A DNA stretch of 5,410 bases, taken from a virus (taxonomy: Duplodnaviria > Heunggongvirae > Uroviricota > Caudoviricetes). The stretch is from the IMG/VR virus record IMGVR_UViG_2737471817_000013. One strand, given 5' to 3'. A model generated the notes under the pieces. That model was not told the DNA's origin. It ran no database searches and worked only from the letters and a program-made list of their open reading frames with translations. Within the stretch, counting starts at the first letter, position 1. The number at the start of each line of letters is the position of its first letter. Shown one piece after another: positions 1 to 5,164 of the stretch. The position numbers and the translations under genes were made by a program.

Positions 1-1818
1 TTAATTTTTACTATCGTCATTAGTGACCGATACACATGATGGCATCCAGTCTTCTGATTCCTCCGTCAGTGTCACGTTTGAACGAAAACCGTGCTTCGTT
101 TTCCGTTTCATATACTCCCTGCCATATTCCGCCATTGCCCCCGGCATATCTTTACCGAAGCGCGTCAGTGTTACAGGTTTACCAAACCCATGTGCCCTCA
201 TATAAGCCAGATAGGCATGATAGAGATACCTACGTGGGCTGAATGGCACAATTTCAGCATTACCCACTAACAGGCCATCACACATTACCGACGCCATGAG
301 ATAGCCGCAGAAGTCCACCAGCGAATCCCCCTCTCGCTTTATCGCCAGTGCTTCTTCAGATTTCTGCTGCTCATATAACAGGCGTCTGGCTTCGTCCTGG
401 TCAGCAAACCGTGTAAGCAGATGGCGAATCACTACCGCCAGCTCACCTTCTATTTTTTCCGCCAGCATGGGGTCGCGCTCGTTCTCCGGTACAACCTCCG
501 AAAAATTGAATATCACCCGACGACGTGAGATCCCCCCGCTGCGGTCACTGAATGACATGGCGTTATTGTTCACCGCCAGCACGACCGCCTGAATGCGTGT
601 TGAGTAGGGGGCTTTATGCTTCGGGTCGATTGCCACCTTGTCACCGCCTGTAATGGCCTTAATTCCTGCGCCATCACCAGCGTAGCGGGTCATATCCGGC
701 ATGATAATCAGCGAAAAGCCAACCACTAACGCGCGTTCCCTTGCATCTTCCAGCGCCTTCATGCTTGCCGATACTGTGTTGGCCTTACCTGCCAGCATGG
801 TGCAAATCTCCGCCATCACGCTTTTACCACTTCCCCCTGGACCTGTTACCTCAATGAATAACTGCCAGTCGTACCGGTTCGCCAGCACCATGAATAATGC
901 AGCCAGCACGCGATCCGCCTTGCGGTCATTCTCAGCCACCGAACGGCGTAACCACTTCCAGAAATTCGGCGCATGTGTTGCCAGCGTTTCCCCCTCTGCT
1001 GGTGGGCTGAAAGGTAATTCACTGGCAATTAACAACCAGTCGTTTTTGTTATGCTCCCGAAAATTACCTGTTCTGGTATCAAATACCCCGTTACTGAATC
1101 CAATCAGGTTACGGGCTGTATTCCCCATTACAGGCAAACTTAACTTCATGGTATCGACCGCCGATTTAATGGCGTTCTGCGAATAGCTGATCTCCGCATC
1201 AATGAAAATCTGTGCCATAGCTCGCTGTAATTCTTTATCCTGAATCGGCTCCCATACAACGCCGTTGTAATGGTGAACAGTGTCAGAGTCAGCATGAATC
1301 GCCAGTTCACCGCCATAATGTGCCAGGAGAACTTCGCCGCGTTGACTTGCTCCCATCTGGTTAAGCGCCAGTGATGAAGCGTTACCGTCTTTTACCCGCT
1401 CTTTTTTCTTTACAGGCAGTTCAACTACCTTTTTCTTTTCCGCCTGCTCTGCCCGTTCACGTTCCAGATATTCGCGCCAGTTCTCCCGTTTCTGGCTGTG
1501 CATTCCTTCAGGGTAATAATCAGCATCCCTGACACCTGCCACTGCCAGTTTCTGCCCGATGGTATTAACAAGCCCCGGACGCAATAACCCCGCCTGATAG
1601 AGACGCACGCGATAGCGTCCGTCCGGTACGATTTGCAGGTTGTCCAGTTCGGCAAGTTGTTGCTCTCCAAGCCAGACAGGAGGCACGTTATCGCCAGCCA
1701 GTCGCCCGTCCTGTTCCTGCCACTGATTCGCATGTGCCCACGCATCACTACCCGCAAAAATGATGACTTCCGTCATTTTGTCACGCGGCTGGTGTTTTAA
1801 ATTTGGCGCTTTTTTCAT
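1..1818 (-). CDS. P4 alpha-like replication protein (primase/helicase: D5_N-like region followed by P4-family primase C-terminal P-loop ATPase domain)
   Basis: 605-codon ORF ending in TAA at 3..1. ATG at 1818..1816 overlaps the TGA of the upstream ORF (ATGA coupling) and is preceded by GGAGAGAG about 8 nt upstream; the ORF-track start at 1833 is a GTG five codons further up. Walker A GPGGSGKS is encoded at 820..843. Downstream motifs (KAITGGDKVAIDPKHKAP, VNNNAMSFSD, RRRVIFNF) and the upstream NGVFDTRTG block match what I remember of the D5_N / P4-primase C-terminal family. A K/E-rich charged linker is encoded at about 1384..1479. Confidence 0.9.
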   Translation of the reverse strand: MKKAPNLKHQPRDKMTEVIIFAGSDAWAHANQWQEQDGRLAGDNVPPVWLGEQQLAELDNLQIVPDGRYRVRLYQAGLLRPGLVNTIGQKLAVAGVRDADYYPEGMHSQKRENWREYLERERAEQAEKKKVVELPVKKKERVKDGNASSLALNQMGASQRGEVLLAHYGGELAIHADSDTVHHYNGVVWEPIQDKELQRAMAQIFIDAEISYSQNAIKSAVDTMKLSLPVMGNTARNLIGFSNGVFDTRTGNFREHNKNDWLLIASELPFSPPAEGETLATHAPNFWKWLRRSVAENDRKADRVLAALFMVLANRYDWQLFIEVTGPGGSGKSVMAEICTMLAGKANTVSASMKALEDARERALVVGFSLIIMPDMTRYAGDGAGIKAITGGDKVAIDPKHKAPYSTRIQAVVLAVNNNAMSFSDRSGGISRRRVIFNFSEVVPENERDPMLAEKIEGELAVVIRHLLTRFADQDEARRLLYEQQKSEEALAIKREGDSLVDFCGYLMASVMCDGLLVGNAEIVPFSPRRYLYHAYLAYMRAHGFGKPVTLTRFGKDMPGAMAEYGREYMKRKTKHGFRSNVTLTEESEDWMPSCVSVTNDDSKN

Positions 1819-2114
1819 TTCTGCTCTCTCCACGCGGCAATCATGTTTTTCAGTTCCTGTAGTTTTTTATCAACATCCATACATGACACATGGTTATTTC
1901 TGGAAAGCGGGATTTCCCGCCGGAATCTGCAAATAAAGATCTCCACGTTCAGCGAACTATGAAATGAATAGCCATCACGAATAAAATAAACACGGTCAAA
2001 CATCAGTTCTTTTACCGTTACTCTGTTACCGTTCTTATCCAGATAAATAGCGCCGGGGATAATTTTGGGGTGTGCATAACCGCTGGCAGTCAAGCCAGAT
2101 AAATATGTTCTCAT
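1815..2114 (-). CDS. Hypothetical small protein (99 aa), translationally coupled to the primase gene
   Basis: ATG at 2114..2112 with GGGGAT about 9 nt upstream. Its TGA stop overlaps the primase ATG. It starts 6 nt after the stop of the preceding ORF. I recognise no family. Confidence 0.6.
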   Translation of the reverse strand: MRTYLSGLTASGYAHPKIIPGAIYLDKNGNRVTVKELMFDRVYFIRDGYSFHSSLNVEIFICRFRREIPLSRNNHVSCMDVDKKLQELKNMIAAWREQK

Positions 2115-2120
2115 GATTAT

Positions 2121-2441
2121 TTATCCCCGATTTGAATCAGTATTCGCTTTCTTTATGGCATTTAATGCATCTGTGGCATTTTCAATGGTGCACCGTAACG
2201 AAATATCAAACTGCCCAAGCATTGCCAGTAACAAACCGATATTACCCATATCAATGCGCATAGCCTTTTCGTCATAGTCCTCATTTTCTGACGCATGCCA
2301 CATCAGGCTACCAATTGACGCAACAGCCATTGATATATTGTCAGTAGCCCCATCCGCAGCGGAATAAACCTTTTTAGCAATATCATGCTCACAGTTAAAA
2401 TGCGGATTAATCAGGTACTGGTAATTTGACATATCAGGCAT
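2121..2441 (-). CDS. Hypothetical small protein (106 aa)
   Basis: ATG at 2441..2439 preceded by AGGGGG about 8 nt upstream, overlapping the last codons of the upstream ORF by 8 nt. An alternative ATG lies at 2432. The product is acidic; I recognise no family. Confidence 0.6.
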   Translation of the reverse strand: MPDMSNYQYLINPHFNCEHDIAKKVYSAADGATDNISMAVASIGSLMWHASENEDYDEKAMRIDMGNIGLLLAMLGQFDISLRCTIENATDALNAIKKANTDSNRG

Positions 2442-2799
2442 GGCACACCCCCTGACGAATACGGGCGGCGAATACCATCACGCAGCCAGCCGGGGATTGC
2501 TGGCGTGCTTCCTGTTCGCTGGTGGCCTCGATGTGAATTACGCGCGGTTGTGCCGTGCTCAGGGCGATAAAACGCCAGATAAAATTGTTCTCGCATTTCT
2601 GAATAAACAGCGTGTTTTCTTCGCGCCCTTTCCATGTTGCCGAGATATAGCCCATGTCATTGAGCATCTCGCAGGCATCAACCAGCGTATCAGCAGCTAC
2701 GTGTACAGTGTTTTTACCGTCAGCTATGCAATCACGGTGCACCGCCAGGAAGGTGTATATAAATTTAGGGTGAGTTTGGGTATGCTGTGTTCCAGCCAT
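2434..2799 (-). CDS. Hypothetical protein (121 aa), first gene of the primase-proximal operon
   Basis: ATG at 2799..2797 preceded by GAGG (plus-strand cctc at 2808..2811) 8 nt upstream; TGA stop at 2436..2434. Protein-like composition. It is the C-terminal part of the 510-aa ORF-track frame but has its own start signals directly downstream of an AT-rich promoter region. Confidence 0.65.
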   Translation of the reverse strand: MAGTQHTQTHPKFIYTFLAVHRDCIADGKNTVHVAADTLVDACEMLNDMGYISATWKGREENTLFIQKCENNFIWRFIALSTAQPRVIHIEATSEQEARQQSPAGCVMVFAARIRQGVCHA

Positions 2800-2829
2800 A
2801 ATCGTTACCTCATTTAACGGTTTGGTTAG

Positions 2830-2863
2830 ACGCCCCGCTACTGCCGCAAACAGTTCGGGGCGT
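2830..2863 (-). other. GC-rich stem-loop in the putative 5' leader of the primase-proximal operon
   Basis: ACGCCCCG (2830..2837) pairs with CGGGGCGT (2856..2863) around an 18-nt loop that has an internal CTG/CAG pair. It sits between the inferred minus promoter and the RBS at 2808..2811. No U-tract follows on either strand. Confidence 0.3.
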
Positions 2864-2884
2864 TGTCGTTTACATCCTCTTACT

Positions 2885-2986
2885 GAGGTGTGATTTAAAT
2901 TAAATTTAACTGAATCACAGGTCAAGTATTTTTTGTGATTCTTTTTTGTGTATACTGAATCACATCTTTTGTTTAGGAGAATGCAC
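2885..2986. promoter_or_regulatory. Divergent promoter/operator region with four TGTGATT half-sites forming two palindromes
   Basis: TGTGATT at 2889..2895 and 2934..2940; its reverse complement AATCACA at 2913..2919 and 2958..2964. CTGAATCACA is repeated exactly at 2910..2919 and 2955..2964. Plus-strand -10-like TATACT at 2951..2956, then AGGAGA (2975..2980) and ATG at 2987. Minus-strand -35-like TTGACC (plus 2920..2925) and -10-like TAATTT (plus 2897..2902) with a 17-nt spacer, pointing toward the 2799 start. Confidence 0.55.
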
Positions 2987-3292
2987 ATGGCAAAAAACAC
3001 TATCAACGACAAATCAAAACAGATTTCAATTCGTATCCCACATGATGCTTTTGAAGGCATGGAATCCGTAAAACTGGACGGTGAAAGCAACGCCGGATTC
3101 ATAGTAACCGCCATGCGCGGTGAGATCGCCCGCCGCCAGGCAGAAGGAAGCGGAGAAAATCCCCTGGTTTCTTCGCTCGATGCGCTGGCGCAGGTGGAAA
3201 AAATCGGAGTCAAAGCTGCCGAGGAGATCGGGCAGCTCGTCACCGTCGCACGTGAAGAACTCCAGCGCCGCAAGGCCAAAGAATCAGAATAA
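2987..3292 (+). CDS. Ribbon-helix-helix DNA-binding protein, Arc/Mnt-like repressor with a C-terminal helical tail (101 aa)
   Basis: AGGAGA 6 nt upstream of ATG 2987; TAA stop at 3290..3292. Good codon usage. N-terminal KQISIRIP (beta strand), HDAFEGMESVKL (helix A), G-E-S-N-A-G turn and FIVTAMRGEIARR (helix B) follow the RHH pattern of P22 Arc/Mnt (GRS-N-SE turn). The C-terminal 45 residues are A/E/K/L-rich, consistent with an oligomerisation helix. The ORF-track start at 2948 is a GTG inside the promoter and is not preferred. Confidence 0.75.
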   Translation: MAKNTINDKSKQISIRIPHDAFEGMESVKLDGESNAGFIVTAMRGEIARRQAEGSGENPLVSSLDALAQVEKIGVKAAEEIGQLVTVAREELQRRKAKESE

Positions 3293-3349
3293 TAACTATC
3301 ATCGCCGTGGTGTGAGGAACTCCGGCGCATTGCTTTACAGGTACACAGA

Positions 3350-3544
3350 ATGACCAACAAAGAATCAACCAATACACCATCACCGGCACGGAAAAGACGG
3401 CGCAGAAAGATAGAGCACGAATCAGAAAGATTCGCGCCATGTGCTTTTGCCCTTGAGCAATTCCTTAAAGAGTACAGGCGCACAAAAATGGGATCGCATA
3501 CCTGGAAAACATCGCGGCATGGCAATGTTAAAGAGCATGAATAG
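3350..3544 (+). CDS. Doubtful small basic ORF (64 aa) with an arginine-rich N-terminal stretch (ARKRRRRK)
   Basis: ATG at 3350 with a weak AGGT about 8 nt upstream; TAG stop at 3542..3544. It uses several AGA/AGG/CGG/ATA codons that are rare in enterobacterial genes, so coding status is uncertain. Confidence 0.25.
   Translation: MTNKESTNTPSPARKRRRRKIEHESERFAPCAFALEQFLKEYRRTKMGSHTWKTSRHGNVKEHE
3415..3437 (-). terminator. Candidate intrinsic terminator for the alpA operon (hairpin followed by a U-rich tract on the minus strand)
   Basis: GCACGAATC (3415..3423) pairs with GATTCGCGC (3429..3437) with one mismatch around the loop AGAAA. On the minus strand the hairpin is followed by TCTATCTTTCTGCGCCGTCTTTTCC. 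The stem is modest, so this is weakly supported. Confidence 0.3.
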
Positions 3545-3966
3545 CCCACCAGCAAGCCAGCACACTGATCACATTGCCCACCAGCCGCAAATCTGGCATT
3601 GTTGGCAATGTGTTCAAGTGTGTAGCTTTCCCACTGGTGGCCCTCTGCAGTCGCCTTTGTTTTATCCAGAACGAAATCAGACATCAGATTGATCAGCACC
3701 TGGTGACCTGACAAAATCGCATCAGTCACGCCACCAGCAAAATTTTTTGCTTTCCGGACAGCGTGGCCAACGGCATTTTGCAGCGAAATATTCTGCATTT
3801 CTGGCGTGCTGTAGTAACGGTGATCAGTGCCTTCACTCTGTGCGACCACAACGCTATAATCTGCCTCGTAGACAGTAAGCAATATGGCGCAGTAGGCTAT
3901 TCGTTCACAAAGGCGCTCCGGCAACGGGGCGCTTTCTCTTTTTGTAACGGTCAGAGCGTTACACAT
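3545..3966 (-). CDS. Hypothetical protein with a well-supported start but an undeterminable 3' end (no in-frame stop before 2434)
   Basis: ATG at 3966..3964 preceded by GGAGG (plus-strand cctcc at 3976..3980) 9 nt upstream; the start abuts the stop of the upstream gene. The first ~140 codons look protein-like (VTDAILSGHQVLINLMSDFVLDKTKATAEGHQWESYTLEHIANNARF). Beyond about 3545 the translation becomes S/R/C/L-rich and is antisense to plus-strand ORFs. 3545 is a nominal boundary, not an observed stop. Confidence 0.4.
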
Positions 3967-4811: not shown

Positions 4812-5000
4812 TTAGTGAACTGCCTCGCGGCTGTCCTTCCATGCCAGAACTTCGGATAAAGACCAGCCAACGGAACGACCACCGAGTTTACGCCGTGATG
4901 GGAATTGTCCGGCTTTTTCCAGGCGGTAGCGGCATGAACGGCTCAGGCCTGTAAGTTGCTGACATTCTTTTTCACGTATAAAGCGATCTGTGCTTAACAC
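4812..5000 (-). CDS. alpA: AlpA/Vis-family phage transcriptional regulator (excisionase-like winged helix), 62 aa from a GTG start
   Basis: RFIREKECQQLTGLSRSCRYRLEKAGQFPSRRKLGGRSVGWSLSEVLAWK aligns by eye with E. coli AlpA (RILRLPAVIQKTGMARATIYDWL...MLGVKSVGWIEAEIDEWL). GTG at 5000..4998 is preceded by GGGGG (plus 5005..5009) 4 nt upstream. The ORF-track 104-aa version begins at a TTG at 5126, and its extra N-terminus is the translation of a (CCCAA)n repeat. TAA stop at 4814..4812. Confidence 0.8.
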   Translation of the reverse strand: MLSTDRFIREKECQQLTGLSRSCRYRLEKAGQFPSRRKLGGRSVGWSLSEVLAWKDSREAVH

Positions 5001-5043
5001 AATTCCCCCTTTGTTGTTTCTTAAAGAGTCATTGGGTGGATTA

Positions 5044-5058
5044 TTGGGTTGGGTTGGG
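5044..5058. repeat. Tandem pentamer repeat (TTGGG)3, with a fourth TTGGG at 5032..5036
   Basis: Direct reading: ATTGGGTGGATTATTGGGTTGGGTTGGGTCGG at 5031..5062. It lies in the leader/promoter region upstream of the alpA GTG start. Confidence 0.6.
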
Positions 5059-5164
5059 TCGGATTGTGTCAGGGTGTTTATGGAATGGCAAACACTGGTG
5101 GCGGTCGTTTTACAGAAGTGGGGCAATGAGAATAAAAACCCTTTTAATTCATTGTGATGCGGTA

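What the first reader, a model, noticed from the sequence alone, without database searches (positions are those of the whole stretch)
1815..2799. Three tightly coupled small unknown ORFs (121, 106, 99 aa) directly upstream of the primase, in the position of phage early accessory genes
The three ORFs overlap or abut one another (8-nt overlap, 6-nt gap, ATGA overlap into the primase), and each has its own Shine-Dalgarno sequence. This means co-translation from the promoter controlled by the RHH operator. I recognise none of the proteins. In satellites and phages this early, primase-proximal position is where host-takeover, anti-restriction and other anti-defence proteins, or helper-manipulating proteins, are usually found. 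The 106-aa product is notably acidic, which is compatible with a DNA-mimic type inhibitor but does not demonstrate one.
Basis: inference. Interest (0 to 1): 0.45.

Follow-up and report, generated by a model that had tools for sequence, protein, structure and literature searches.

The report
Early-operon small genes of a phage satellite
The three small genes are real and tightly coupled, but they are the ordinary leading genes of the replication operon of a phage-parasitising island (PICI): an Icd/Kil-type cell-division inhibitor, an uncharacterised acidic helical protein, and an RgdR/DUF4222-family protein fused in expression to the primase.

Summary
On the minus strand, ORF1 (2799-2434, 121 aa), ORF2 (2441-2121, 106 aa) and ORF3 (2114-1815, 99 aa) join with an 8-nt overlap, a 6-nt gap and an ATGA overlap into the primase. 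All three are under purifying selection (pN/pS 0.15, 0.29, 0.32).

Two of the three are not unknown.
- ORF1 belongs to the Icd/Kil family (NF033153, 79 bits), like P1 Icd and P4 Kil. It appears to carry a degenerate second copy of the unit at its N-terminus. It has the same length and architecture as the Icd-like protein implicated as a cell-death effector in E. coli ECOR61.
- ORF3 is a DUF4222 protein, 31% identical over its full length to RgdR (ECs1581). RgdR occupies the same primase-overlapping position in EHEC island OI-51.
- ORF2 is a real, acidic (pI 4.6) predicted two-helix hairpin. Its small family is restricted to satellites and has no known function.

The element is a lambda-helper-type PICI. 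The block mirrors the kil...cnr-alpha operon of phage P4. RefSeq already annotates the same arrangement.

Functions are inferred, not shown. No evidence supports anti-restriction or DNA mimicry. Verdict: a new member of a known kind, of modest interest.

The parts
2434..2799 (-). ORF1, 121 aa: an Icd/Kil-family protein. The C-terminal unit (res 73-116) is canonical. The N-terminal ~45 residues look like a degenerate second copy of the unit.
   Evidence: NF033153 gives E=1.6e-22, 79.3 bits against a cutoff of 25, with 2 stretches. The N-terminal half alone gives 14 bits, E=0.04. The single-copy Icd-like protein of L006 aligns to both halves. P4 Kil aligns to res 3-22 with E=4e-5. P1 Icd is 40% identical over the core, E=1e-5. 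pN/pS is 0.15 overall and 0.22 for the N-terminal half. Near-identical 121-aa proteins are annotated 'Icd-like' in E. coli and Salmonella.
2121..2441 (-). ORF2, 106 aa: an acidic (pI 4.63) predicted two-helix hairpin. It is a member of a small uncharacterised family restricted to satellites (phrog_15327).
   Evidence: phrog_15327 gives E=1.4e-71; there are no Pfam, NCBIfam or PADLOC hits. The exhaustive HMMER search found only a few ~100-aa homologues (P0179 at 42% identity; P0183-185 at 27-31% in the search, 26-30% in alignment A2). The AF2 model has pLDDT 78.8 with helices 19-51 and 58-105. Foldseek against PDB and BFVD gave nothing with E<0.3. pN/pS is 0.29. Family members occur in 10 of the 22 loci that have both an Icd-like ORF and a primase, in six genera, and in a satellite with an AAA_25 replicase.
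1815..2114 (-). ORF3, 99 aa: a basic (pI 9.59) DUF4222 / RgdR-family protein. Its stop overlaps the primase start (ATGA).
   Evidence: PF13973 gives E=4.8e-17, 61.7 bits against a cutoff of 27. It is 31% identical over the full length to RgdR/ECs1581, E=1e-12, with the same 99 aa and the same overlap with the primase. pN/pS is 0.32. A replicase with the shared N-terminal domain follows in 95/97 cases. The AF2 model is of low confidence (pLDDT 59.9): a small beta-sheet plus a C-terminal helix.
1..1818 (-). Primase-helicase, 605 aa (D5_N, DUF5906, Pox_D5). It is translationally coupled to ORF3. Residues 1-131 (window 1426-1818) form a separable N-terminal domain.
   Evidence: Pfam, NCBIfam and PHROG hits. 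The N-terminal domain is 54-55% identical to the N-termini of an AAA_25 helicase and a DUF927 primase that are otherwise unrelated.
2884..2964 (.). Divergent control region. It has four TGTGATT/AATCACA half-sites (2889-2895, 2913-2919, 2934-2940, 2958-2964) forming two palindromes, and a leftward promoter candidate (-35 TTGACC 2925-2920, -10 TAATTT 2902-2897).
   Evidence: Repeat search and direct reading of the sequence. The promoter was not called by the consensus scan. The operator assignment to the RHH protein is an inference.
2830..2863 (.). GC-rich hairpin (8-bp perfect stem ACGCCCCG/CGGGGCGT, 18-nt loop) in the leader between the promoter candidate and the ORF1 start.
   Evidence: Inverted repeat I5. 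Its function is unknown. No Rfam family matches.
2987..3292 (+). Divergently transcribed YlcI/YnfO-family ribbon-helix-helix gene (101 aa), the presumed repressor of the operon.
   Evidence: NF041551 gives E=3.7e-18. The same gene lies in the same position in L002, L003, L005 and many other loci.
2800..3966 (-). Open reading frame in phase with ORF1, extending upstream to an ATG that overlaps the AntA stop by 8 nt (510 codons in all). It is a possible eta-like long form with ORF1 as the nested Kil-like short form. This is unproven.
   Evidence: 0 stops in 389 codons against 20 and 25 in the other two frames, and 0 of 20,000 shuffles are open. The pattern recurs across genera. It parallels P4 eta/kil (PMC10111431). 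pN/pS does not discriminate: 0.35 against 0.21 for the antisense RHH frame.

Best explanation
The three ORFs are the leading cistrons of the early (replication) operon of a lambda-helper-type phage-inducible chromosomal island. This is the PICI counterpart of the phage P4 left operon (kil/eta ... cnr - alpha).

Shown:
- The genes are real and under purifying selection.
- They are joined by overlap or near-abutment junctions that are conserved in relatives.
- The block sits between a divergent YlcI/YnfO ribbon-helix-helix gene and the primase.

Inferred mechanism:
1. When the island is derepressed, transcription comes either from the proximal promoter candidate, which overlaps TGTGATT palindromes, or by read-through from the upstream AlpA-AntA genes.
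2. Ribosomes start at ORF1 and are handed on by termination-reinitiation to ORF2, ORF3 and the primase, which fixes their stoichiometry.
3. ORF1 is an Icd/Kil-family protein with a degenerate duplicated unit. It arrests host division or growth, as P1 Icd and P4 Kil do. This either buys time for satellite replication or aborts infection, as the same-length Icd-like protein does in the ECOR61 island. As the first cistron it probably also gates expression of the genes behind it.
4. ORF3 is an RgdR/DUF4222 protein, small and basic. RgdR binds DNA non-specifically. ORF3 most likely works with the conserved N-terminal domain of the replicase, at the origin or in replication control, filling the slot that Cnr holds in P4. 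Its effects on host transcription (LEE, motility) would be a side activity.
5. ORF2 is an acidic helical hairpin that most likely acts by binding another protein. Its target is unknown.
For: Gene reality and coupling.

Element identity: the window's own element is int-AntA-RHH-ORF1-ORF2-ORF3-primase-SSB-lambda E-like capsid-decoration protein-AlpA-Nu1. The same block also occurs in a capsid-forming island.

ORF1:
- It is in the Icd/Kil family.
- P4 Kil is the first translated gene of the P4 left operon, nested in eta, and causes cell killing (PMC10111431).
- P1 icd overlaps ant1 by 4 nt and is annotated as required for ant expression.
- In ECOR61, suppressor insertions hit a 366-nt (121-aa) Icd-like gene and the two small ORFs that follow it with an overlap. 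The system needs 6 linked genes including a primase.

ORF3:
- It is in the RgdR family and in the same position as RgdR.
- It is followed by a replicase with the shared N-terminal domain in 95/97 cases, whichever catalytic module that replicase carries.
- P4-like satellites carry cnr in the equivalent position in about 90% of elements (PMC8628076).

ORF2: the family recurs in six genera and alongside a different replicase, always inside this operon.
Against: - No function was tested here. All functions are inferred from homology or position.
- ORF3 has no detectable homology to Cnr. It lacks the RGD motif that gave RgdR its name (P-G-A at 20-22). Its structural model is of low confidence.
- About 9 of 104 replicases with the N-terminal domain lack an upstream DUF4222 gene, so it is not obligatory.
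- The sample of loci is dominated by close relatives.
- The same Icd-like protein pairs with unrelated downstream ORFs, so ORF2 is not a fixed partner of ORF1.
- No C4/CI-type regulatory RNA accompanies ORF1, unlike in P1 and P4.
- The proximal promoter is weak by consensus and was not called by the scan.
Confidence: 0.62

Rival explanations
1. The block, together with the primase, is a satellite-encoded abortive-infection / superinfection-exclusion module of the ECOR61 type. The duplicated Icd-like protein (ORF1) is the lethal effector. The small downstream proteins (here ORF2 and possibly ORF3) are co-factors or sensors that release it when an incoming phage expresses a particular accessory gene.
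For: In ECOR61, a prophage-like element kills the cell when phage gene orf24 is expressed. Suppressor insertions fall in a 121-aa Icd-like gene and in the two small ORFs directly downstream. Six linked genes including a primase are needed, and removing the Icd-like gene abolishes killing. ORF1 has the same length and the same 'N-terminal extension' architecture. Proteins 97-98% identical to ORF1 head such operons in many E. coli.
Against: The ECOR61 sequence itself could not be fetched, so identity with ORF1 rests on length and annotation only. The small ORFs downstream in ECOR61 (61 and 63 aa) are not ORF2 homologues, and hhalign found no relation between ORF2 and the Sakai 61/63-aa ORFs. Reconstitution in a laboratory strain was weak. 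Defence could be a by-product of ordinary early-gene derepression. There are no PADLOC hits.
Confidence: 0.25
2. ORF2 (and perhaps the others) is an anti-defence or anti-restriction protein, for example an acidic DNA mimic, carried in a variable accessory slot of the satellite.
For: ORF2 is acidic (pI 4.63, net charge about -7). The interval between the Icd-like gene and the primase is highly variable, with 22 protein clusters in 22 loci. Variable early regions of phages often hold counter-defence genes (general knowledge; for context).
Against: There is no hit to any known anti-restriction family in Pfam or NCBIfam. The predicted fold is a simple two-helix hairpin with no significant neighbour. 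The ORF2 family is conserved across six genera and sits at a fixed place in the operon, which looks more like core satellite biology than cargo.
Confidence: 0.08
3. ORF1-ORF2 is a toxin-antidote pair. ORF2 neutralises the Icd/Kil-type toxin so that the island can express its replication genes without killing its host prematurely.
For: The 8-nt overlap is conserved in 59/64 loci, and also in a distant satellite with another replicase. Icd/Kil proteins are toxic. ORF2 is small and acidic.
Against: Near-identical ORF1 proteins are followed by unrelated ORFs of 74 aa or 121 aa. ORF2-family genes also occur one gene removed from, or without, a detected Icd-like gene. In ECOR61, insertions in the downstream small ORFs suppress killing rather than enhance it.
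Confidence: 0.1
4. The ORFs, or some of them, are annotation noise. In particular, the true ORF1 might be only the short 67-73-aa form that PGAP calls in some relatives.
For: PGAP annotates 67-aa and 73-aa Icd-like genes in L002 and L001.
Against: pN/pS for ORF1 residues 1-66 is 0.22. The ATG at 2799 and the following MAxxQHTQTxPK motif are homologous to the start of single-copy Icd-like proteins and resemble the P4 Kil and P1 Icd N-termini. A GAGG motif lies 8 nt upstream. Many records annotate the 121-aa form. ORF2 and ORF3 have pN/pS of 0.29 and 0.32 and have conserved homologues.
Confidence: 0.03

Closest known systems
Phage P4 left (early) operon: alpA-like orf88 - eta/kil - epsilon - orf151 - cnr - alpha primase
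   Same: The order and logic are the same: an AlpA-type gene upstream, an Icd/Kil-family first cistron (P4 Kil scores 76 bits on NF033153), a few small genes, and a small gene abutting the primase. As with eta/kil, a long open frame in phase with the Icd-like ORF starts at the stop of the upstream gene.
   Different: ORF2 and ORF3 are not homologous to epsilon, orf151 or cnr. No CI RNA is detectable; instead a divergent YlcI/YnfO RHH gene lies antisense inside the long frame. The Icd-like unit appears duplicated. The element is a PICI with lambda-type capsid and Nu1 genes, not a P2-dependent P4-like satellite.
RgdR (ECs1581) of EHEC O157:H7 island OI-51 / CP-933C / Sp7
   Same: It is a DUF4222 protein of 99 aa, basic, immediately upstream of the island's primase and overlapping it by 4 nt. 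It is 31% identical to ORF3 over the full length.
   Different: ORF3 has P-G-A where RgdR has the RGD motif (residues 20-22), and identity is only 31%. RgdR's known phenotypes (LEE1 activation, motility repression, non-specific DNA binding) were not tested for ORF3. The host of this window may have no LEE.
P1 Icd (immI operon c4-icd-ant)
   Same: It belongs to the same family (P1 Icd 52.6 bits, ORF1 79.3 bits on NF033153) and is 40% identical over the core. It is also a first cistron translationally coupled to the next gene by overlap.
   Different: P1 Icd is a single 73-aa unit, controlled by the C4 antisense RNA and coupled to an antirepressor. ORF1 is 121 aa with a second degenerate unit. 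It has no detectable C4-like RNA, and an AntA antirepressor gene lies upstream rather than downstream.
ECOR61 prophage-encoded cell-death (superinfection exclusion) locus of Silas et al. (bioRxiv 10.1101/2023.04.06.535777)
   Same: [quoted passage not shown]
   Different: The downstream small ORFs are 61 and 63 aa, not an ORF2 homologue. Whether this window's element responds to any phage trigger is unknown.

Membership tests
Icd/Kil family (NCBIfam NF033153 phage_ICD_like) - ORF1 | Match to the family model above the curated cutoff | tested here: met
   79.3 bits against a cutoff of 25, E=1.6e-22, residues 73-116 covering profile positions 1-48.
Icd/Kil family - ORF1 | Pairwise similarity to the founding members P1 Icd and P4 Kil | tested here: met
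   P1 Icd: 40% identity over 42 aa, E=1e-5. P4 Kil N-terminus against ORF1 residues 3-22: E=4e-5. Both founders score on the same model, at 52.6 and 76.1 bits.
Icd/Kil family - ORF1 | First cistron of an early operon, translationally coupled to the next gene | tested here: met
   There is an 8-nt overlap with ORF2, conserved in 59/64 loci. P1 icd overlaps ant1 by 4 nt.
Icd/Kil family - ORF1 | Control by a C4/CI-type antisense RNA in the leader (as in P1 and P4) | tested here: not met
   An Rfam scan of the whole window at E<=1 found nothing. This feature belongs to the P1 and P4 regulatory circuits rather than to the protein family.
Icd/Kil family - ORF1 | Inhibits cell division, or kills, when expressed | not testable with these tools
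   This needs an expression experiment. It is reported for P1 Icd (record annotation), for P4 Kil and for the ECOR61 homologue.
RgdR / DUF4222 (Pfam PF13973) - ORF3 | Match to PF13973 above the gathering score | tested here: met
   61.7 bits against 27, E=4.8e-17, residues 16-67.
RgdR / DUF4222 - ORF3 | Full-length similarity to RgdR (ECs1581) and the same genomic position | tested here: met
   31% identity over 99 of 99 aa, E=1e-12. ECs_1581 overlaps primase ECs_1582 by 4 nt.
RgdR / DUF4222 - ORF3 | RGD motif at residues 20-22, reported as important for T3SS activation | tested here: not met
   ORF3 has P20-G21-A22. The motif definition is from PMC3378721. The natural CGD variant of ED1a was inactive on T3S.
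RgdR / DUF4222 - ORF3 | DNA binding, LEE1 activation and motility repression | not testable with these tools
   These are experimental phenotypes only. The model of ORF3 is of low confidence, and its best fold matches are non-significant small beta-barrels.
P4 Cnr (DUF5375) - considered for ORF3 and ORF2 | Sequence homology to Cnr | tested here: not met
   BLASTP gave no alignment for either ORF. hhalign between the DUF4222 or ORF2 profiles and the Cnr profile gave <50% probability.
P4 Cnr - considered for ORF3 | Small gene immediately upstream of the satellite replicase gene | tested here: met
   The junction is ATGA. DUF4222 is followed by the replicase in 95/97 cases. Cnr is in the same slot in P4 and in 3 other loci.
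DNA-mimic anti-restriction proteins (Ocr, ArdA type) - considered for ORF2 | Homology to, or fold resemblance with, a known mimic; strongly acidic surface | tested here: not met
   The protein is acidic (pI 4.63), but there is no Pfam or NCBIfam hit of any kind. The predicted two-helix hairpin has no significant PDB or viral structural neighbour.
Phage-inducible chromosomal island (Gram-negative PICI) - the element | Integrase, AlpA regulator, primase/replicase, packaging-redirection or capsid genes, ~10-16 kb, no lysis or tail genes | tested here: met
   The window's own element L159 has int, AntA, RHH, the three ORFs, primase, SSB, Phage_cap_E, HDPD, AlpA and Nu1, within about 11 kb. An AlpA-family ORF lies at window 4812-5126.

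The most novel reading that the evidence does not exclude
Two readings remain open.

1. ORF1 may be the short, Kil-like product of a nested gene pair. Its long form would be the 510-codon frame that starts at the AntA stop and runs antisense across the RHH repressor gene. That long form would be translated only on read-through from the AlpA-AntA operon. Its translation, rather than its sequence, would keep transcription going into ORF2-ORF3-primase, as in P4 eta/kil but built around a protein repressor gene encoded antisense inside it.

2. The duplicated Icd-like protein together with the small proteins behind it may form a phage-triggered cell-death switch of the ECOR61 type.
Probability: 0.25. 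Interest if true: 0.6.

Novelty: new member of a known kind. Interest (0 to 1): 0.33.

Why it matters
These small genes head the replication operon of islands found in about a quarter of complete E. coli genomes. None of the three has a defined molecular mechanism in a PICI.

If the inferences hold, three things follow.
- ORF1-type proteins would link satellite induction to host division arrest or abortive infection.
- DUF4222/RgdR proteins, known only as odd virulence regulators in EHEC, would be explained as replication-module proteins whose host effects are secondary.
- The recurring association of DUF4222 with one N-terminal replicase domain, across three catalytic types, gives a direct and testable handle on how these islands start replication.

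For annotation, the result corrects 'unknown' to two named families. It also shows that the 121-aa start of the Icd-like gene is the authentic one.

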